From NCBI RefSeq assembly GCF_009914755.1, contig NC_060926.1: a stretch of 64,000 bases of DNA, one strand, 5' to 3'. Positions within the stretch are counted from its first letter, which is position 1; every line of letters begins with the position of its first letter. The stretch is from the human T2T-CHM13v2.0 reference genome, Homo sapiens. Position numbers and translations under genes: made by a program. Below the pieces are notes generated by a model, which saw only the letters and a program-made list of their open reading frames with translations, ran no database searches and was not told the DNA's origin. This document shows positions 19,814-61,035 of this stretch, piece after piece.

Positions 19814-22733
<2,920 letters not shown>

Positions 22734-51562: not shown

Positions 51563-51792
51563 TCAAAAGAACAAATTAAATAATTGTTATGAAGTTGAAC
51601 TTCTAAAACTTGTTCACTGAAATGTTTTGACCCGCATTAATGCTTTATGTCCCACATTTATATTGAAAATCCACATGCAAATAAAAATGGAAAAACCACC
51701 AATACCTCATTTCTGTTCCTTATTTTTTCACTTACAATCTTATACTTAGGTGCCTTTTGACCCTATGGGGAAAAAATAATGTTCAGAACTAC

Positions 51793-52332
51793 TGAGAGGT
51801 GACAGCGTGCTGGCAGTCCTTACCGCCCTCGCTCGCTCTCAGCGCCTCCTCTGCCTGGGCTCCCACTTTGGCAGCACTTGAGGAGCCCTTCAGCCCACCA
51901 CTGCACTGTGGGAGCCACTTTCTGGGCTGGCCGAGGCCGGAGCCCACTCCTTCAGCTTGCAGGGAGGTGTGGAGGGAGAGGCGCGAGCAGGAACCAGGGC
52001 TGCGTGCCACGCTTGTGGGCCAGCTGGAGTTCCGGGTGGGCATGGGCTTGGCGGGCCCCGCACTCGGAGCAGCCGGCCAGCCCTGCCGGCCCCAGGCAAT
52101 GAGGGGCTTAGCACCCGGGCCAGCGGCTGCGGGGGGTGCACTGGGTCCCCCAGCAGTGCCAGCCAACCGGCACTGCTCTTGATTTCTCACCGGGTCTTAG
52201 CTGCCTTCCCGCGGGGCAGGGCTCGGGCCTGCAGCCCGCCATGCCTGAGCCTCCCACCCCCTCCATGGGCCCCTGTGCGGCCCGAGCCTCCCCGATGAGT
52301 GCCGCCCCCTGCTCCACGGCGCCCAGTCCCAT
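51793..52332 (+). mobile_element. Truncated 5' LTR12C (GC-rich proximal U3 only)
   Basis: Colinear with 3' LTR 58269-58793 up to CCCAGTCCCAT, then joins directly to ERV9 leader (GCCAAGCGGTGAGAC). No CCAAT repeats, R, U5 or PBS. Confidence 0.92.
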
Positions 52333-53413
52333 TGCCAAGCGGTGAGACAATCGCTGAGCGGTGAGAGCATCACCTATCCGCAAGCAGTGAGTACCATCGG
52401 ACCCCTTTCGCTTGCTATTCTGTCCTGTCTTTCCTTAGAATTCGGGGGCTAAATACCGGGCACCTTATTGGCCAGTTAAAAGTGACTAGCGCAGCTGCCA
52501 GAGTAAAGACACGGGTGTCAGGCTTTCTGGGAAAGGGCTCTCTAACAACCCCCGACTCTTCGGAGTTGGGACCATTGGTTTGCCTAGAACCAGCTTCCGC
52601 TTTTCCTGTACTTCTGGACTGAGTCAAGGGTTGACAAAGAGGAAAGCCATGCAGCTCCGGGGTCCCAACAACAAGTTGGTTGACCCTGCGGCCATGGGCA
52701 GAACTCTCAAAGGCATGTCGCCCAAGTGAGACTTGCCCATCTATCCTATCTATCCTGACCCTTGCCCCCTGGGTCCTAATGCCTGCCAGACAAACTTCCT
52801 CTCACCTCTTTTCTCTGAGGCTAATTAGACCCACTTCTAAAAATTGCTACCTGTCTCTGGTGCTTTTCTAGTTTCTCCTATAAGAATGATTTCTAGTATA
52901 AACTCCAGGACTCTGTTACCTTCTTTAGGCACCTGGGCTCACCAATCAGAAAGACATAATTTTTGCCCAAAGCCCTGTCACAGTGGGGACTACCTGGAAT
53001 TTTAGGATCCCTCCTCAGACTAACAGGCCTAACAAAAGCTATTCCTGAAGCTAGGATATGGGGAGCCTTAGAAATTGTATCCTTCCTATTCATATAAGTG
53101 AGGACAAAAGGTGTCACTCTTCCAACCCTGGAGATCCCTTCCCTCCCTCAGGGTGTGGCCCTCCACTTCATTTTTGGGGCATAACATCTTTATAGGACAG
53201 GGGTAAAGTCCCAAGACTAACAGGAGAATGCTTAGGACTCTTAACAGGTTTTTGAGGATGCGTTGGTAAGGGCCACTAAATCTGATTTTTCTCAGTCGGT
53301 CCTCCTTGTGGTCTAGGAGGACAGGCAAGGGTGCAGGTTTTCAAGAATGCGTCGGTAAGGACCACTAAATCCGACCTTCCTCCGTCCTCCATGTGGTCTG
53401 GGAGGAAAACTAG

Positions 53414-53652
53414 TGTTTCTGCTGCTGCGTCAGTGAGCGCAACTATTCCGATCAGCAGGGTCCAGGGACCGTTGCAGGTTCTTGGGCAGGGGTTGTTTCT
53501 GCTGCTGCATTGGTGAGCGCAACTATTCCGATCAGCAGGGTCCAGGGACAGTTGCATGTTCTTGGGCAGGGGTTGTTTCTGCTGCTGCGTCGGTGAGCAC
53601 AACTATTCCGATCAGCAGGGTCCAGGGACCGTTGCGAGTTCTTGGGCAGGGG
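53414..53652 (+). repeat. Three tandem 80-bp repeats in the proviral leader
   Basis: Unit TGTTTCTGCTGCTGC...AACTATTCCGATCAGCAGGGTCCAGGGA...TTCTTGGGCAGGGG starts at 53414, 53494 and 53574. Confidence 0.95.
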
Positions 53653-53696
53653 GAGAAACAAAACAAACCAAAACCACGGGCGGTTTTGTCTTTCAG

Positions 53697-55157
53697 ATGG
53701 GAAACACTCAGGCATCAACAGGCTCACCCTTGAAATGCATCCTAAGCCATTGGGACCAATTTGACCCACAAACCCTGAAAAAGAGGCGGCTCATTTTTTT
53801 CTGCACTACGGCTTGGCCCCAATATTCTCTTTCTGATGGGGAAAAATGGCCACCTGAGGGCAGTACAAATTACAATACTATCCTGCAGCTTGACCTTTTC
53901 TCTAAGAGGGAAGGCAAATGGAGTGTCTTACCTTATGTTCGAGCTTTCTTTTCATTGAGGGAGAATATACAACTATGCAAAGCTTGCAATTTACATCCCA
54001 CAGGAGGACCTCTCAGCTTACCACCATATCCTAGCCTCCCTATAGCTCCCCTTCCTATTAATGATAATCCTCCTCTAATCTCCCCTGCCCAGAAGGAAAT
54101 AAGCAAAGAAATCTCCAAAGGACCACAAAAACCCCCGGGCTATCGGTTATGTCCCCTTCAAGCTGTAGGGGGAGGGGAATTTGGCCCAACCTGGGTACGT
54201 GTCCCCTTCTCCCTCTCTGATTTAAAGCAGATCAAGGCACACCTGGGGAAGTTTTCAGATGATCCTGATAGGTACATAGATGTCCTACAGGGTCTAGGGC
54301 AAACCTTTGACCTCCCTTGGAGAGATGTCATGCTACTGTTAGATCAAACCCTGGCCTTTAATGAAAAGAATGCCGCTTTAGCTGCAGCCCGAGAGTTTGG
54401 AGATACCTGGTATCTTAGTAAAGTAAATGATAGAATGACAGCTGAAGAAAGGGACAAATTCCCTACTGGTCAGCAAGCCATCCCCATTATGGATCCCCAC
54501 TGGGACCTTGACTCAGATCATGGGGACTGGAGTCGTAAACATCTGTTGACCTGTGTTTTAGAAGGACTAAGGAGAATTACAAAAAAGCCCATGAATTATT
54601 CAATGATGTCCACCATAAATCAGGGAAAGGAAGAAAATCCTTCTGCCTTCCTCGAGCGGCTACGAGAGGCCTTAAGAAAATATACTCCCCTGTCACCTGA
54701 ATCACTTGAGAGTCAATTGATTCTAAAAGATAAGTTTATTACCCAATCAGCCACAGATACCAGGAGAAAGCTCCAAAAGCAAGCCCTGAGCCCTGAACAA
54801 AAATCTAGAGGCATTATTAAACCTGGCAACCTCGGTGTTCTATAATAGGGACCAAGAGGAACAGGCCCAAAAGGAAAAGCGAGATCAGAGAAAGGCCGCA
54901 GCCTTAGTCATGGCCCTCAGACAAACAAACCTTGGTGGTTCAGAGAGGACAGAAAATGGAGTAGGCCAATCACCTGGTAGGTCTTGTTATCAGTATGGTT
55001 TACTAGGACACTTTAAAAAAGATTGTCCAATGAGAAAGAAGCTGCCCCCTCATCCATGTCCACTATGCCGAGGCAATCGCTAGAAGGTGCACTGCCCCAG
55101 AGGACGAAGGTTCCCTGGGTCAGAAGGCCCAACCAGATGATCCAACAACAGGACTGA
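53697..55157 (+). pseudogene. gag: HERV9 gag: MA-CA open for ~368 codons, +1 frameshift at 54799-54803, degenerate NC
   Basis: MGNTQAS start and MHR-like [23 protein letters not shown]. An A5 run breaks [23 protein letters not shown]. Zinc knuckle reads CYQYGLLGHFKKDC (Cys>Tyr); TAG at 55081-55083; gag stop TGA at 55155-55157. Confidence 0.93.
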
Positions 55158-57410
55158 GGGTGCCCGGGGCAAGTGCCAGCTCATGTCATCACCCTCACTG
55201 AGCCCCGGGTATGTTTAACTATTGAGGGCCAGGAAATTGACTTCCTCCTGGACACTGGCGCAGCCTTCTCAGTGTTACTCTCCTGTCCTGGACGACTGTC
55301 CTCAAGGTCCGTTACCATCCGAGGAATCCTGGGACAGCCTGTAACCAGGTATTTCTCCCACCTCCTCAGTTGTAATTGGGAGACTTTGCTCTTTTCACAT
55401 GCCTTTCTTGTTATGCCTGAAAGTCCCACACCGTTATTAGGGAGGGATATATTAGCCAAGGCTGGAGCTATTATCTACATGAATATGGGGAACAAGTTAG
55501 CCATTTGTTGTCCCCTACTTGAGGAGGGAATCAACCCTGAAGTCTGGGCATTGGAAGGACAATTTGGAAGGGCAAAAAATGCCCGCCCAGTCCAAATCAG
55601 GTTAAAAGATCCCACCAGTTTTCCTTATCAAAGGCAATATCCCTTAAGGCCTGAAGCTCATACAGGATTACAGAATATTGTTAAACATTTGAAAGCTCAA
55701 GGCTTAGTAAGGAAATGCAGGAGTCCCTGAAACACCCCAATTCTGGGAGTACAAAAACCAAACGGTCAGTGGAGTCTAGTGCAAGATCTTAGACTCATTA
55801 ATGAGGCAGTAATTCCACTATATCCAGTTGTACCCAACCCCTATACCCTGCTCTCTCAAATACCAGAGGAAGCAGAATGGTTCACGGTTCTGGACCTCAA
55901 GGATGCCTTCTTCTGTATTCCCCTGCACTCTGACTCCCAGTTTCTCTTTGCTTTTGAGGATCCCACAGACCACACGTCCCAACTTACATGGATGGTCTTG
56001 CCCCAGGGGTTTAGGGATAGCCTTCATCTGTTTGGTCAGGCACTGGCCCAAGATCTAAGCCACTTCTCAAGTCCAGGCACTCTGGTTCTTCAATATGTGG
56101 ATGATTTACTTTTGGCTACCAGTTCGGAAGCCTCGTGCCAGCAGGCTACTCTAGATCTCTTGAACTTTCTAGCTAATCAAGGGTACAAGGTGTCTAGGTC
56201 GAAGGCCCAGCTTTGCCTACAGCAGGTTAAATATCTAGGCCTAATCTTAGCCAAAGGGACCAGGGCCCTCAGCAAGGAACGAATACAGCCTATACTGGCT
56301 TATCCTCGCCCTAAGACATTAAAACATTTGAGGGGGTTCCTTGGAATTACCGGCTTTTGCCGACTATGGATCCCTGGATACAGCGAGATAGCCAGGCTCC
56401 TCTATACTCTAATCAAGGAAACCCAGAAGGCAAATACTCATCTAGTCGAATGGGAACCAGAAGCAGAAACAGCCTTTAAAACCTTAAAGCAGGCTCTAGT
56501 ACAAGCTCCAGCTTTAAGGCTTCCCACAGGACAGAACTTCTCTTTATATGTCACAGAGAGAGCTGGGATAACTCTCGGAGTCCTTACTCAGACTCGTGGG
56601 ACAATCCCACAACCAGTGGCATACCTAAGTAAGGAAATTGATGTAGTAGCAAAAGGCTGGCCTCACTGTTTAAGGGTAGTTGCAGCAGTGGCCATCTTAG
56701 CATCAGAGGCTATCAAAATAATACAAGGAAAGGATCTCACTGTCTGGATTACTCATGATGTAAATGGCATACTAGGTGCCAAAGGAAGTTTATGGCTATC
56801 AGACAGCCACCTACTTAGATACCAGGCACTACTCCTTGAGGGACTGGTGCTTCAAATGCGCATATGCGTGGCCCTCAACCCTGCCACTTTTCTCCCAGAG
56901 GATGGGGAACCAATCGAGCATGACTGCCAACAAATTATAGTCCAGACTTAGGCCGCCCGAGATGATCTCTTAGAAGTCCCCTTAACTAATCCTGACCTTA
57001 ACCTATATAACGATGGAAGTTCATTTGTGGAGAATGGGATACGAAGGGTAGGTTACACCATAGTTAGTGATGTAACCATACTTGAAAGCAAGCCTCTTCC
57101 CCCAGGGACCAGTGCCCAGTTAGTGGAACTAGTGGCACTTACCTGAGCCTTAGAACTGGGAAAGGGAAAAAGAATAAATGTGTATACAGATAGCAAGTAT
57201 GCTTATCTAATCCTACATGCCCATGCTACAATATGGAAAGAGAGGGAGTTCCTAACCTCTGGGGGAACCCCTATTAAATACCACAAGGAAATTATAGAGT
57301 TATTGCACACAATGCAAAAACACAAAGAGGTGGGAATCTTACACTGACAAAGCCATCAAAATGGGAAGGAGAGGGGAGAACAGCAGCATAAGCAGCTGGC
57401 AGAGGCAGCA
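55158..57410 (+). pseudogene. pol: HERV9 pro-pol (protease, RT, RNase H) with nonsense codons; integrase absent
   Basis: Protease motifs FLLDTGA and LLGRDIL; RT motifs LPQGF and YVDD; RNase H motifs YNDGSS and VYTDSKY. One reading frame throughout, with stops at 55728, 56949, ~57144 and ~57345. Confidence 0.93.
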
Positions 57411-57570
57411 GAAAGGAAAGAAAGGGACAGGAAGTCAAAGAAAGAGACAGAGAAGAGACAAAGAAGTCAGAAAGAGGAACAGACACAGAAAGAGAGTTAA
57501 AAAGAGAGGAAGAGACAAAGAAGAAGTTGAAGAGAAAGAAAGAGAGATGGAAGTAGTAAAGAAAAAACAG
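57411..57570 (+). repeat. AG-rich low-complexity tract at the pol/env deletion region
   Basis: Almost pure purine run (GAAAGGAAAG...AGAGAAAGAAAGAGAG) following RNase H. Confidence 0.8.
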
Positions 57571-57659
57571 TATACCCTATTCCTTTAAAAGCCAGGGTAA
57601 ATTTCTATCTACCCAGCCAAGGCATATTCTACTTATGTGGATCTTCAACCCGTATCTAC

Positions 57660-58100
57660 CTCTCAAACAGTTTGCAAGAAATAACAAAATCTATCCTTAC
57701 TGTATAATCCCAAATAGACTCTTTGGCAGCAGTGACTCTCCAAAACCGCCGAGGCCTAGACCTCCTCACTGCTGAGAAAGGAGGACTCTGCACCTTCTTA
57801 GGGGAAGAGTGTTGTTTTTACACTAACCAGTCGGGGGTAGCACAAGATGCCACCCAGCGTTTACAGGAAAAGGCTTCTGAAATCAGACAACGCCTTTCAA
57901 ATTCTTATACCAGCCTCTGGAGTTGGGCAACATGGCTTCTCCCCTTTCTAGGTCCTGTGGCAGCCATCTTGCTGTTACTCGCCTTTGGGCCCTGTATTTT
58001 TAACCTTGTCAAATTCGTTTCCTCTAGAATCGAGGCCATCAAGCTACAGATGGTCTTACAAATGGAACCCCAAATGAGTTCAACTAACAACTTCTACTGA
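57660..58100 (+). pseudogene. env: HERV9 env TM-subunit remnant (SU deleted)
   Basis: Immunosuppressive-domain motif LQNRRGLDLLTAEKGGLC, CX6CC motif CTFLGEECC and hydrophobic anchor WLLPFLGPVAAILLLLAFGPCIF. In-frame TAA near 57705 upstream of these. Confidence 0.92.
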
Positions 58101-58257
58101 GGACTCCTGGACCGACCCTCTGGCACTTCCCCTGGCCTAGAGAGTTCCCCTCTGAAGGACACTACAACTGCAGAGCCCCTTCTTTGCCCCTATCCAGCAG
58201 GAAATAGCTAGAGCGGTCATTGGCCAAATTCCCAACAGCATTTGGGGTGTCCTGTTT

Positions 58258-58268
58258 AGAGGGGGGAT
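58258..58268 (+). other. Polypurine tract
   Basis: AGAGGGGGGAT immediately before the TG of the 3' LTR. Confidence 0.88.
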
Positions 58269-58929
58269 TGAGAGGTAACAGCGTGCTGGCAGTCCTCACA
58301 GCCCTCGCTCACTCTCAGCGCCTCTGCCTGGGCTCCCACTTTGGCGGCACTTGAGGAGCCCTTCAGCCCACCACTGCATTGTGGGAGCCCCTTTCTGGGC
58401 TGGCCAAGGCCGGAGCCCACTCCCTCAGCTTGCAGGGAGGTGTGGAGGGAGAGGCGCAAGCAGGAACCGGGGCGGCGTGCCGCGCTTGCGGGCCAGCCGG
58501 AGTTCCGGTTGGGCATGGGCTTGGCGGGCCCCGCACTCGGAGCAGCCAGCCCCAGGCAATGAGGGGCTTAGCACCCAGGCCAGCAGCTGCGGAGGGTGTA
58601 CTGGGTCCCCCAGCAGTGCCAGCCCACCGGCGCTGCTCTCAGTTTCTCACTGGGTCTTAGCTGCCTTCCCACAGGGCAGGGCTCGGGACCTGCAGCCCGC
58701 CATGCCTGAGCCTCCCACCCCCTCCATGGGCCCCTGTGCGGCCCGAGCCTCCCTGATGAGTGCCGCCCCCTGCTCCACGGCGCCCAGTCCCATCAACCAC
58801 CCAAGGGCTGAGGAGTGTGAGCGCACGGTGTGGGACTGGCAGGCAGCTCCACCTGCAGCCCAGGTGTGGGATCCACTGGGTGAAGCCAGCTGGGCTCCTG
58901 AGTCTGGTGGGGACATGGAGAACCTTTAT

Positions 58930-59270
58930 GTCTAGCTCAGGGATTGTAAATACACCAATAGGCACTCTGTATCTAGCTCAAGGTTTGTAAATACACCAAT
59001 CAGCACCCTGTGTCTAGCTCAGGGTTTGTGAATGCACCAGTAGACACTCTGTATCTAGCTACTCTGGTGGGGCCTTATAGAACCTTTGTGTCGACACTCT
59101 GTATCTAGCTAATCTGGTGGGGACGTGGAGAACCTTTGTGTCTAGCTCAGGGATTGTAAACGCACCAATCAGCGCCCTGTCAAAACAGACCACTCGGCTC
59201 TACCAATCAGCAGGACGTGGGTGGGGCCAGATAAGAGAATAAAAGCGGGCTGCCCGAGCTAGCAGTGGTA
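58930..59270 (+). promoter_or_regulatory. LTR12 U3 enhancer/promoter (NF-Y CCAAT array, GATA, AATAAAA TATA-like box)
   Basis: CCAAT at 58955, 58996, 59165 and 59203; AGATAA at 59229-59234; AATAAAA at 59238-59244. This matches the known ERV9 LTR promoter layout. Confidence 0.8.
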
Positions 59271-59323
59271 ACCCGCTTGGGTCCCCTTCCACACTGTGGA
59301 AGCTTTGTTCTTTAGCTCTTTGC

Positions 59324-59329
59324 AATAAA
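59324..59329 (+). terminator. LTR polyadenylation signal AATAAA, sense to BMPR2
   Basis: TTGC-AATAAA-TCTTGC in the R region, followed by T/GT-rich sequence (CTCTTTGGGT, CTGTTTTTATG). Confidence 0.75.
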
Positions 59330-59692
59330 TCTTGCTACTGCTCACTCTTTGGGTCCATACTGTTTTTATGAGCTGTAACACTCCCCGCAAAGGTCTGCAG
59401 CTTCACTCCTGAAGCCAGCGAGACCAGGAGCCCACCAGGAGGAATGAACAACTCCAGACACGCCGCCTCAAGAGCTGTAACACTCACCGCGAAGGTCTGC
59501 AGCTTCACTCCTGAGCCAGCGAGACCACAAACCCACCAGAAGGAAGAAACTCTGAACACATCCGAACATCAGAAGGAACAAACTCCAGACGCACCACCTG
59601 AAGAGCTGTAACACTCACTGCGAGGGTCCGTGGCTTCATTCCTGAAGTCAGTGAGACCAAGAACCCACCAATTCCGGACACACTACCAATAA

Positions 59693-60023
<331 letters not shown>

Positions 60024-61035
60024 TGAGCCACCATGCCTGACCCATCATAGTAGATTCTTAAGGATGCTTTCTACAAATGCATTGTGCTAGTTGGATATCT
60101 TTTGGCATGATTGTTACACGTTTGGCATGGATAACATACAGGTTAATGTCTTCAAAAAGGCCAACCAGATAGGCCTACTGAACCAAAGAGATAGCTATTT
60201 TCAAAATACCAATAGCTGTACTCTAGATGTGCCAATCTATTTTGAAGTCCCAAACAATTTCTCACCTCAGACACTGGAAGAAAATTTGCCAATCAGAAGT
60301 TCAGGGGACTTCTGATTAGGACTTATTACAGAGTGCCTCGCAAATAGGTCTGTAATTCTGAGGTTTCTTCACCTATCCTGTAGAGGACACTCTCTTAGGA
60401 GCAGCTTTTTTTTTTTTTTTTTTTTTAATAAATTTTGGAAACAGGATTTTACTCTGTCTTCTAGGCCGCAGTGTAGTGGCGCAATCATAGTTCACTGCAG
60501 CCTGCAACTCCTGAGCTCAAGCAACCCTCCCAACTCAGCCTCCTGAGTAGCTGGGATTACAGGTGTGAGCACTGTGCTTGGTCTCTTATGAGCAACTTTT
60601 GTAACCACTTGCTTACTGGATGCTTTACTTCCAGTTGATTTATGGACATTGTTGTGCCTTTTATGAGCCATGGTATAGAGACCTCCTTACTTACTCTCCT
60701 CCTTTGGCTGGAGCTTGGCAAGCTAGAGGTGGTGCTGGCACTCTATAACCACTTTATTTTATGGATAAAGAAGTAAGAGCCTAGAAAAATTATATAATTT
60801 GTCCACAGTGGCTAAAGTGGGACTAAAACTTATGAGCTCTTTTCACTAAACTACTTTACCACTGTTACCTGAAATATTTTGGGAGTGTAATATTATCAAT
60901 AATAGACTACTTATTTCCTAACAACTGGTTGTTAATGATAATGTTAAATTATAGTTAAATTTTGAAGTTAAATCACTGTTCGTCATGGTTGCTAATATTT
61001 GATGTAATGCCTTAGGACAAATTTTCCTACCTAGG

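What the first reader, a model, noticed from the sequence alone, without database searches (positions are those of the whole stretch)
58930..59682. Intact LTR12C promoter pointing at the downstream BMPR2 exons
Seen: four CCAAT boxes, a GATA site and the AATAAAA box are retained in sense orientation within intron 3. Established: LTR12C elements act as NF-Y-dependent promoters in testis and are strongly induced by DNMT/HDAC inhibitors, splicing into host exons. Inference: transcripts starting near 59260 could yield ectodomain-less BMPR2 (TM/kinase) or interfere with elongation.
Basis: partly seen in the sequence, partly recalled or inferred. Interest (0 to 1): 0.7.

Follow-up and report, generated by a model that had tools for sequence, protein, structure and literature searches.

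The report
Old retroviral LTR inside BMPR2 intron
The flagged stretch is the promoter end of the right-hand LTR of an old, broken HERV9 provirus lying in the same direction as BMPR2 in its third intron; it is a catalogued, normally silent repeat copy with no evidence so far that it makes a shortened BMPR2.

Summary
The motifs are real: four sense CCAAT boxes, AGATAA and AATAAAA at 58955-59244. The unit is larger than flagged. It is a 1414-bp LTR (58269-59682), the 3' LTR of a 7.9-kb defective HERV9 provirus (51793-59682, 4-bp duplication CTAC). That provirus's 5' LTR has lost its promoter, R, U5 and primer-binding site.

Both are already catalogued. The provirus is HERV9 no. 790. The LTR is 'LTR12C chr2:203367926-203369340' (hg19) in a published table.

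"Intact" is overstated. The 12-nt initiator departs at two places from the motif of active copies. It is the only double variant among the first 100 listed of 232 genomic matches.

In the published table the copy is silent at baseline and unmoved by 5-aza-CdR in HEK293T. It is weakly switched on by dCas9-VP64, gains H3K27ac but not H3K4me3, and BMPR2 is absent from the affected-gene list.

An in-frame LTR-exon 4 product with transmembrane segment and kinase is possible on paper, but only through a weak donor that 26 of 40 copies share.

Verdict: an ordinary, known repeat copy. A BMPR2 chimera is untested and unlikely.

The parts
51789..51792 (+). left target-site duplication CTAC
   Evidence: Read directly. 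The same 4 bases follow the 3' LTR at 59683-59686.
51793..52332 (+). 5' LTR remnant (540 bp): only the '5' extension' part; U3 repeats, promoter, R, U5 and the primer-binding site are missing
   Evidence: Matches 58269-58793 at 91.3% over 541 columns. The MAFFT alignment has 30 mismatches in 524 aligned positions and 4 indel events. After 52332 the sequence continues in HERV9 leader. In complete copies (L050, L051) that leader starts about 33 nt after the LTR end, behind a TTTTGGCGACC... primer-binding stretch.
52333..58268 (+). internal region of the HERV9 provirus: leader, gag, protease, RT/RNase H, purine-rich stretch, C-terminal (TM) part of env, polypurine tract
   Evidence: Pfam hits: Gag_p30 1.3e-24 and weak Gag_MA (53517-54845); RVP 3.8e-12 (55158-55730); RVT_1 7.8e-24 plus RNase H-like domains (55731-56951); RNase_H (56952-57347); TLV_coat 1.9e-36 covering only profile positions 449-559 of 560 (57708-58100). 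No integrase-core or SU match in the 8 ORFs scanned. All frames are interrupted. AGAGGGGGGA at 58258-58267 lies just before the LTR.
58269..59682 (+). complete 3' LTR, LTR12C type, 1414 bp (TG...CA)
   Evidence: The boundaries come from the 5'/3' LTR match, the duplication and the full-length colinear alignment with the KCNN2 LTR12C. The interval is identical to 'chr2 203367926 203369340 LTR12C' (hg19) in Ohtani 2024 Table S1, using the offset fixed by Vargiu 2016.
58269..58902 (+). GC-rich 5' extension of the LTR (the region reported as ZNF676 target in LTR12C/D/E)
   Evidence: GC is 0.69-0.72. The review and Iouranova 2022 describe a ~600-nt 5' extension in LTR12C/D/E bound by ZNF676. Binding at this copy was not tested.
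58903..59215 (+). U3 enhancer repeats with 4 CCAAT (58955, 58996, 59165, 59203), 3 GTATCTAGC (GATA-type) and 2 GTGGGGA (MZF1-type) motifs
   Evidence: TRF finds period 41 x3.2 and period 50 x2.0.
59219..59244 (+). core promoter: GGGTGGGG (Sp1-like) 59219-59226, AGATAA 59229-59234, AATAAAA (TATA-like) 59238-59244
   Evidence: Spacing from the last CCAAT to AATAAAA is identical to that in the KCNN2 LTR12C.
59258..59269 (+). initiator element, here GCTAGCAGTGGT: two substitutions (59260, 59269) relative to the GCCAGCAGTGGC motif of active LTR12C
   Evidence: The motif and its importance come from the review, section 5. Of the 39 closest copies, 37 carry the other base at 59260 and all 39 at 59269. 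It is the only T/T variant among the first 100 listed of 232 genomic matches to GAGCYAGCAGTGGYAACCCGC.
59324..59330 (+). AATAAAT: retroviral poly(A) signal in R, also the 'TATA II' of LTR12C copies that start about 90 bp further downstream
   Evidence: The role as second TATA/initiator pair in the GBP2 and GBP5 LTR12C copies comes from PMC7641743.
59368..59398 (+). only AUG before the first donor-like site (ATG 59368) and that site, AAG|GTCTGC (exon end 59392)
   Evidence: The 25 nt leave phase 1, which fits the phase-1 acceptor of BMPR2 exon 4. The same 25-nt arrangement occurs in 26 of 40 copies examined.
59370..59670 (+). U5 with three copies of the ~70-nt 'B' repeat
   Evidence: Repeat family D2: copies at 59370, 59472 and 59603.
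59683..59686 (+). right target-site duplication CTAC
   Evidence: read directly.

Best explanation
The flagged stretch is the enhancer/promoter, R and U5 part of a 1414-bp LTR12C. That LTR is the 3' LTR of a fixed, defective HERV9 provirus (51793-59682) that integrated in the sense direction into BMPR2 intron 3 roughly 10-15 million years ago. The provirus has lost the promoter half of its 5' LTR, its primer-binding site, integrase and most of env, so the 3' LTR holds its only remaining promoter. That promoter keeps the NF-Y, Sp1-like, GATA and TATA-like sites but has an altered initiator. Like most of the ~2450 LTR12C copies it is kept silent (inferred: DNA methylation and KZFP/KAP1 repression). 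It can be forced into weak transcription with an enhancer-type mark (H3K27ac without H3K4me3). It makes no regular contribution to BMPR2 products. Any LTR-to-exon 4 transcript would be rare and conditional.
For: Anatomy. The two LTRs match, CTAC flanks both ends, and retroviral domains lie in the order gag-PR-RT-RNaseH-envTM. The 5' LTR is cut at 540 bp and no primer-binding site remains. Independent catalogues. RetroTector provirus no. 790 is a canonical HERV9 with 95% best match to pHE.1, and the LTR12C label sits on exactly this interval. Age. LTR-LTR divergence is 30/524, with 18 mismatches in CpG context. CpG count is 50 against a median of 60 in 37 relatives, with only 4 of 37 at or below it, which fits long germline methylation. 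Promoter state. The motifs are retained but the initiator is altered in both arms. Published data on this copy (Ohtani 2024 Table S1): baseline reads are 0-6 in four cell lines; HEK293T 5-aza-CdR gives 5,3,3 against PBS 4,2,1. dCas9-VP64 gives 13,13,19 against 2,3,2 in HEK293T (RPKM about 0.25-0.35), 91,95,83 against 0,1,1 in A2780, 17,32,19 against 2,4,4 in MCF7, and 30,13,27 against 1,0,1 in HCT116. H3K27ac is yes and H3K4me3 is blank. The paper states that only the ~20% of copies with both marks give long read-through transcripts. BMPR2 has 0 occurrences in the whole supplement, including the upregulated-gene table. The RefSeq table given with the task lists no functional element or TSS there.
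Against: The core promoter is largely conserved and the copy belongs to the short length class. It also lies within a transcription unit. One study associated both features, together with a TATA box, with induction. LTR12C copies with a mutated initiator (GBP2) or a deleted TATA box (GBP5) still act as promoters from a start about 90 bp downstream, and that second AATAAAT/initiator pair is kept here. The copy does respond to targeted activation in 4 of 4 cell lines. Brocks 2017 is not held, and the large tables of Goyal 2023 and the RAMPAGE atlas supplement could not be read. Gene-level tables would not reveal a minor LTR-driven isoform of an already expressed gene.
Confidence: 0.75

Rival explanations
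1. On derepression (male germ line, DNMT/HDAC inhibitors, infection) the LTR fires near 59260-59360 and splices into BMPR2 exon 4. This gives an ectodomain-less receptor (TM plus kinase) or a kinase-only protein.
For: The orientation is sense, 9095 bp upstream of exon 4, whose acceptor has a good pyrimidine tract. The only AUG before the first donor-like site (59368) is in frame through AAG|GT at 59392 and would give MSCNTPRKG followed by the exon 4 juxtamembrane and TM residues. The copy is inducible by dCas9-VP64. Precedents exist: sense intronic LTR12 and LTR12D elements drive 5'-variant or N-truncated ELMO1 transcripts, LTR12C elements serve as alternative promoters of KCNN2 and short CADM2, and treatment-induced LTR12C transcripts splice into coding exons.
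Against: The initiator is altered in both arms. H3K4me3 is absent after activation and 5-aza-CdR has no effect in HEK293T. The donor AAG|GTCTGC scores about 0 on a rough matrix built from recalled frequencies, against 1.9-3.9 for BMPR2 exon 3 and 4 donors. The next donor-like sites (59494, 59626) put stop codons in frame. The AUG context is poor (T at -3, A at +4), and the AUG would be about 10 nt from the cap if the downstream start is used. The ATG/donor arrangement is generic to the family (26 of 40 copies), not a feature of this locus. The review states that LTRs do not usually contain splice sites. No BMPR2 link was found in any text or readable supplement.
Confidence: 0.1
2. The LTR works as a conditional enhancer or chromatin element for BMPR2 or a neighbour, through NF-Y/GATA-2/MZF1 binding, rather than as a promoter.
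For: After CRISPRa it gains H3K27ac without H3K4me3. The U3 repeats carry CCAAT, GATA-type and MZF1-type motifs as in the beta-globin LTR12C enhancer. Ohtani 2024 proposes enhancer activity for such single-marked copies.
Against: BMPR2 is not among the 78 upregulated coding genes, 43 with a proximal activated LTR12C and 35 without. The copy has only 4 CCAAT boxes against a median of 6 in relatives. There are no binding data for this copy.
Confidence: 0.1
3. The sense-oriented provirus acts on BMPR2 pre-mRNA as a weak trap. A cryptic acceptor in the provirus, together with the LTR poly(A) signal at 59324, would end some transcripts after exon 3, giving an ectodomain-only message.
For: A canonical AATAAA followed by a T/GT-rich stretch lies in sense. 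Sense ERVs in introns are reported to be under negative selection (abstract of PMC1794541 in listings 33 and 49), and 12 ERV9 sense splice events are reported.
Against: The element has been fixed for millions of years in an essential, dosage-sensitive gene. Most of env, where the retroviral acceptor would lie, is deleted. The review knows of no LTR12 used as a poly(A) site. No such transcript appears in the RefSeq table supplied.
Confidence: 0.05

Closest known systems
LTR12C alternative promoter of KCNN2 (review Table 1, hg38 chr5:114432500-114433929; found here as G000 C5:114945388-114946817)
   Same: Both belong to the short length class (1430 versus 1414 bp). They are colinear end to end at 90.9% identity. 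The spacing of CCAAT, GGGTGGGG, AGATAA and AATAAAA is identical. Both lie on the sense strand of their host gene.
   Different: The KCNN2 copy has the canonical GCCAGCAGTGGC initiator and is documented as a promoter. The BMPR2 copy has two substitutions there, is attached to a provirus, and has no documented host transcript.
LTR12-i1 and LTR12D-i13 in ELMO1 (PMC12147996)
   Same: These are sense-oriented ERV9-family LTRs in introns that start transcripts joining the next downstream exon. One encodes an N-terminally truncated protein with a short novel leader.
   Different: They belong to other subfamilies, and their transcripts are deposited or annotated. Nothing comparable is known for BMPR2.
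LTR12C promoters of GBP2 and GBP5 (PMC7641743)
   Same: They also depart from the canonical TATA/initiator pair and keep the second AATAAAT/initiator pair.
   Different: They are solo LTRs upstream of their genes, with promoter activity shown by reporter assays and RNA-seq.
Treatment-induced LTR12C transcripts (TINATs/TINPATs; Brocks 2017 as cited, Goyal 2023)
   Same: Same subfamily and same proposed mechanism: a derepressed LTR12C start site splicing into coding exons.
   Different: Membership needs a measured start site at this copy. None could be found or checked here.
Canonical HERV9 proviruses (pHE.1-like; Vargiu 2016 catalogue)
   Same: It is listed as no. 790, canonical HERV9, with a 95% best match to pHE.1 and gag-pro-pol recognised.
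   Different: RetroTector found no LTRs or primer-binding site. Here both LTRs, the 4-bp duplication and the 5' LTR/PBS deletion are defined.

Membership tests
LTR12C (ERV9 LTR subfamily) | About 600-nt 5' extension upstream of the U3 repeats (LTR12C/D/E only) | tested here: met
   58269-58902 is GC-rich, present in both LTRs and colinear with the KCNN2 LTR12C. The feature is described.
LTR12C (ERV9 LTR subfamily) | U3 tandem 'E' repeats (~41 bp) carrying CCAAT, GATA-type and MZF1-type motifs | tested here: met
   TRF finds period 41 x3.2 and period 50 x2.0. There are 4 CCAAT, 3 GTATCTAGC and 2 GTGGGGA.
LTR12C (ERV9 LTR subfamily) | AATAAAA about 30 nt upstream of the start site; short R with AATAAA; U5 'B' repeats | tested here: met
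   AATAAAA at 59238, initiator at 59258-59269, AATAAA at 59324, and three B-type repeats.
LTR12C (ERV9 LTR subfamily) | Full-length similarity to copies labelled LTR12C; RepeatMasker label | tested here: met
   90.9% identity over 1-1414 with the KCNN2 LTR12C. Ohtani 2024 Table S1 lists exactly this interval as LTR12C. Caveat: the segment-wise best matches in Vargiu 2016 were LTR12C, a gibbon ERV9 LTR and LTR12E. No Dfam or Repbase library was available to score subfamilies directly.
Transcriptionally competent ('intact') LTR12C promoter | GCCAGCAGTGGC initiator with inverted repeat GCCANNNNTGGC, reported essential for correct start-site use | tested here: not met
   The element here reads GCTAGCAGTGGT. 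Both arms are changed, and it is the only such double variant among the first 100 listed of 232 matches.
Transcriptionally competent ('intact') LTR12C promoter | NF-Y site at fixed distance from TATA-like box, Sp1-like site, TATA-like box | tested here: met
   CCAAT at 59203, GGGTGGGG at 59219 and AATAAAA at 59238, with the same spacing as in the KCNN2 copy.
Transcriptionally competent ('intact') LTR12C promoter | Measured start sites, H3K4me3 or NF-Y occupancy at this copy | not testable with these tools
   Published table only: weak RNA increase with dCas9-VP64, H3K27ac yes, H3K4me3 blank, 5-aza-CdR without effect in HEK293T. No CAGE or NF-Y data were accessible.
LTR-driven chimeric host transcript (alternative promoter / TINAT) | Splice junction from the LTR to a BMPR2 exon | not testable with these tools
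   No RNA data were available. An in-frame junction 59392 to 68778 is possible on paper. There is no mention in the texts or readable supplements searched.
HERV9 provirus | Two LTRs flanked by a short target-site duplication | tested here: met
   5' LTR remnant 51793-52332, 3' LTR 58269-59682, and CTAC on both sides.
HERV9 provirus | gag-pro-pol-env in order, primer-binding site, polypurine tract | tested here: inconclusive
   gag, PR, RT, RNase H and env-TM are present and a polypurine tract lies at 58258-58267. The primer-binding site is deleted. No integrase-core or SU match was found in 8 ORFs, although RetroTector lists an IN motif.

The most novel reading that the evidence does not exclude
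The sense-oriented provirus has lost its own 5' promoter, so the 3' LTR12C is a free-standing latent promoter inside BMPR2. In male germ cells, the early embryo or under DNMT/HDAC-inhibitor therapy it might fire from its second start site. It could then use the U5 donor at 59392 to make an 8-residue-leader/TM/kinase BMPR2 without a ligand-binding domain, or simply interfere with elongation. Either effect would modulate BMP signalling in a dosage-sensitive gene that underlies heritable pulmonary arterial hypertension.
Probability: 0.05. Interest if true: 0.6.

Novelty: already known. Interest (0 to 1): 0.2.

Why it matters
BMPR2 is dosage-sensitive; its role in heritable pulmonary arterial hypertension is recalled knowledge, not checked here. 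A drug-inducible internal promoter that made an ectodomain-less receptor, or that disturbed elongation, would therefore matter for epigenetic therapies. The evidence gathered points the other way. This is one of thousands of LTR12C copies, already catalogued, silent at baseline and only weakly activatable. It shows an enhancer-type rather than a promoter-type mark, has an altered initiator, and has no recorded effect on BMPR2. The useful outcome is a corrected anatomy and one precise junction to look for: a provirus rather than a solo LTR, exact boundaries, and the hypothetical junction 59392 to exon 4.

Tried and rejected
1. Tying close copies to named loci. L002 is not the KCNN2 LTR: the SK-channel exons lie about 0.9 Mb away. 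L042 is not the ZNF80 LTR: there are 0 ORFs of 150 aa or more in the 9972 bp downstream. The KCNN2 copy was then found through the pattern search.

2. Literature on a BMPR2 link. LTR12C + BMPR2 returned 1 paper, an unrelated review seen only in the listing. Two broader searches (any 2 of 5 terms) listed 25 of 90 and 15 of 136 papers, none holding BMPR2 among those listed; the unlisted ones were not seen.

3. Supplements searched for BMPR2.
- Ohtani 2024: 0 occurrences.
- Iouranova 2022: 0 occurrences.
- Kronung 2016: 0 occurrences.
- Goyal 2023: one row only, in 'Known_Proteome' (logFC 0.07, adj. P 0.41), which says nothing about LTR transcripts.
- Goyal 2023's transcript-level files are too large or unreadable.

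4. Papers and supplements not available. Brocks 2017 and La Mantia 1992 are not held. Strazzullo 1994 was not seen; its claim is taken from the review. Its main text has no BMPR2 or LTR12C.

5. Rfam on 57500-61000 gave 0 matches at gathering score.

6. Donor scoring used a rough matrix with recalled frequencies. It serves for ranking only and mis-scores the GC donor of exon 2.

Full report
OBSERVATION. CCAAT lies at 58955, 58996, 59165 and 59203, with a fifth at 59668 and none on the minus strand of the LTR. AGATAA is at 59229 and AATAAAA at 59238. Four CCAAT in 58930-59260 compare with a mean of 0.3 in 5000 mononucleotide shuffles, none of which reached four. The cause is descent, not chance. 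The boxes sit in tandem units of 41 and 50 bp. All 40 scored genomic candidates, out of 4480 first-look candidates and with one being the locus itself, match the 753 bp essentially end to end. The 39 others match at 93-94% identity.

REAL EXTENT. The flagged start is mid-element.
- A self-comparison shows that 58269-58793 is repeated at 51793-52332, at 91.3% over 541 columns.
- Both repeats begin TGAGAGG.
- The four bases CTAC flank both ends, at 51789-51792 and 59683-59686.
- Between the repeats lie, in order, Gag_MA/Gag_p30, retroviral protease, reverse transcriptase, RNase H and only the C-terminal transmembrane part of an env (TLV_coat profile positions 449-559 of 560). All frames are interrupted. 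None of the 8 ORFs scanned matched an integrase core or a surface unit.

The unit is therefore one integration: a 7890-bp defective gamma-type provirus, 51793-59682. The flagged stretch is the 3' 53% of its 1414-bp 3' LTR.

The 5' LTR is only 540 bp long. After 52332 the sequence jumps into the leader. In complete relatives (L050, L051) that leader begins about 33 nt behind the LTR end, after a TTTTGGCGACC... primer-binding stretch. The 5' LTR has thus lost its U3 repeats, promoter, R, U5 and the primer-binding site, about 0.9 kb in all. The 3' LTR carries the only retroviral promoter left at this locus.

The two LTRs differ at 30 of 524 aligned positions, 18 of them in CpG context, plus 4 indel events. 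With commonly used rates (recalled: about 0.1-0.2% per million years per lineage) this gives roughly 10-15 million years. That fits the ERV9 expansion period described in the review.

WHAT FAMILY. The architecture matches the description of LTR12C/D/E in the review and in Iouranova 2022. It has the following features:
- a GC-rich ~630-nt 5' extension;
- E repeats with CCAAT, GATA-type and MZF1-type motifs;
- AATAAAA about 20-30 nt before an initiator at 70% of the length;
- a short R with AATAAA;
- three B repeats in U5.

Three independent anchors confirm the assignment.
1. The RetroTector catalogue of Vargiu 2016 lists provirus no. 790 at hg19 chr2:203363355-203368910 as canonical HERV9, with a 95% best match to pHE.1. 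Its protease start maps exactly to window 55158, which fixes hg19 = window + 203,309,658.
2. Table S1 of Ohtani 2024 contains the row 'chr2 203367926 203369340 LTR12C'. This is precisely 58269-59682.
3. The LTR12C named in the review as alternative promoter of KCNN2 is 1430 bp long. A copy of exactly that length was found in this assembly downstream of the SK-channel exons. It aligns with this LTR end to end at 90.9% identity.

One caveat: the segment-wise labels in Vargiu 2016 for the LTR part were mixed (LTR12C, a gibbon ERV9 LTR, LTR12E). No repeat library was available to score subfamilies directly.

STATE OF THE PROMOTER. The following elements are retained:
- the NF-Y site nearest the TATA-like box, with the same spacing as in the KCNN2 copy;
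- GGGTGGGG, AGATAA and AATAAAA;
- the second AATAAAT/initiator pair that the GBP2 and GBP5 LTR12C copies use.

Among 37 relatives whose whole LTR could be recovered (of 40 tried), this copy belongs to the short length class of about 1410-1438 bp; the long class is about 1540-1660 bp. It has 4 CCAAT in U3 against a median of 6 (range 3-10). It has 50 CpG against a median of 60, and only 4 of 37 relatives have as few or fewer.

The initiator is not retained. According to the review, active LTR12C copies start within GCCAGCAGTGGC, whose inverted repeat was reported essential for correct start-site use. That claim rests on Strazzullo 1994, which I did not see. This copy reads GCTAGCAGTGGT at 59258-59269. 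Of the 39 closest copies, 37 carry the other base at 59260 and all 39 at 59269. A genome-wide pattern allowing either base at both places has 232 matches. Of the first 100 listed, 92 are canonical, 7 differ at one place, and only this locus differs at both; the other 132 were not listed. 'Intact' is therefore too strong. The defect is not decisive either, because GBP2's copy has an initiator mutation and still works from about 90 bp downstream.

DIRECT DATA ON THIS COPY. [quoted passage not shown]

| Cell line and comparison | Control reads | Treated reads | RPKM |
|---|---|---|---|
| HEK293T, PBS vs 5-aza-CdR | 4,2,1 | 5,3,3 | not quoted here |
| HEK293T, non-targeting vs LTR12C-targeting dCas9-VP64 | 2,3,2 | 13,13,19 | 0.04-0.06 to 0.25-0.35 |
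| HEK293T, non-targeting vs LTR12C-targeting dCas9-p300 | 6,3,3 | 2,2,5 | not quoted here |
| A2780, dCas9-VP64 | 0,1,1 | 91,95,83 | treated 2.7-2.9 |
| MCF7, dCas9-VP64 | 2,4,4 | 17,32,19 | not quoted here |
| HCT116, dCas9-VP64 | 1,0,1 | 30,13,27 | not quoted here |

In HEK293T the ChIP columns read: dCas9 binding yes, H3K27ac yes, H3K4me3 blank.

Against the 13 other rows visible, the response of this copy is mid-range in A2780 and in the lower part in the other three lines. The paper states that 610 copies were transactivated in HEK293T. It also states that only about 20% carried both marks, and that those gave the long read-through transcripts. BMPR2 occurs nowhere in the supplement, including the list of upregulated coding genes. 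A minor isoform of an already expressed gene would not show in such a list.

WHAT A TRANSCRIPT COULD ENCODE. Exon 3 ends in phase 1. Exon 4 was located outside the window at extended coordinates 68778-68888. It is 111 bp long, has a phase-1 acceptor behind a good pyrimidine tract, and encodes the juxtamembrane and transmembrane residues. It lies 9095 bp downstream of the LTR.

Consider a transcript starting at about 59262 and using the first donor-like site (AAG|GTCTGC, exon end 59392). Its first AUG is at 59368 and is in frame.

Five points weigh against this product.
- The donor scores about 0 on a rough matrix built from recalled frequencies, against 1.9 and 3.9 for the exon 3 and 4 donors.
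- The AUG has T at -3 and A at +4. It would lie about 10 nt from the cap if the downstream start is used.
- The next donor-like sites (59494, 59626) put stops in frame. The next in-frame AUG then lies after the membrane segment.
- The same 25-nt ATG-to-donor arrangement is present in 26 of 40 copies examined. It is a family trait, not an adaptation of this locus.
- The review notes that LTRs do not usually contain splice sites.

MOST LIKELY MECHANISM. What is shown: a fixed, old, defective HERV9 provirus in sense orientation in intron 3. Its 3' LTR12C keeps most promoter motifs, has an altered initiator, is silent at baseline, and can be forced into weak transcription with an enhancer-type mark.

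What is inferred: silence is maintained by DNA methylation and KZFP/KAP1 repression. The LTR is CpG-poorer than most relatives, and the 5' extension, present twice at this locus, is the reported ZNF676 target. It is also inferred that the LTR makes no regular contribution to BMPR2 products.

Three rivals remain: a conditional alternative promoter giving truncated BMPR2 (about 0.10), a conditional enhancer (about 0.10), and a weak splice/poly(A) trap using AATAAA at 59324 (about 0.05).

COMPARISON AND NOVELTY. The kind is well known. LTR12C alternative promoters are documented for KCNN2, CADM2, TP63 and GBP2 among others. Sense intronic LTR12-family promoters drive ELMO1 variants. Treatment-induced LTR12C transcripts are also described. 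The element itself is already catalogued twice.

A link to BMPR2 was not found in the texts and supplements I could search. The most relevant tables could not be read: Brocks 2017, the transcript-level files of Goyal 2023, and the RAMPAGE atlas supplement. Absence from print is therefore not established.

VERDICT. This is an ordinary, already annotated repeat copy of low interest. A small residual chance of a conditional BMPR2 isoform remains, and one database look-up of 5'-end data could settle it.

Noticed in passing
window 59729-60059: An Alu in minus orientation (poly-T head from about 59746, body to about 60042) lies 46 bp after the provirus. It is flanked by a 17-18 bp direct duplication (CATCATAGTAGATTCTT at 59729-59745 and 60043-60059). 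The annotated H3P8 span starts right at its end.
   Followed up: partly
window 60042-60739, minus strand: H3P8 is recognisable only as fragments on the minus strand. One example is the 38-aa frame 60058-60174, which resembles a histone H3 C-terminus as I recall it. A T-run and an Alu-like piece at about 60400-60590 interrupt the fragments.
   Followed up: partly
window 20016-20024: The donor of BMPR2 exon 2 reads AAG|GCAAGT. Intron 2 therefore begins with GC rather than GT.
   Followed up: no
window 57360-57560: A purine-rich, low-complexity stretch (GAAAGA/GAGA-type, open for 96 aa with no Pfam match) lies between the RNase H remnant and the env TM remnant of the provirus. This is where integrase and env SU would be expected. 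I did not determine whether it is proviral or a filler at a deletion.
   Followed up: no
window 52079-52091 versus 58539/58540: The 5' LTR remnant carries 13 extra bases (GCCGGCCAGCCCT) relative to the 3' LTR, in a locally repetitive GC-rich context. This is one of 4 indel events between the two LTRs.
   Followed up: no
G000 C12:8771266-8772609 and C2:47105314-47106678 (L034/L051, L033): At least two of the closest LTR relatives are 5' LTRs of HERV9 proviruses. Their leader match begins 34-52 bp after the LTR match, so they are proviral LTRs rather than solo LTRs.
   Followed up: partly
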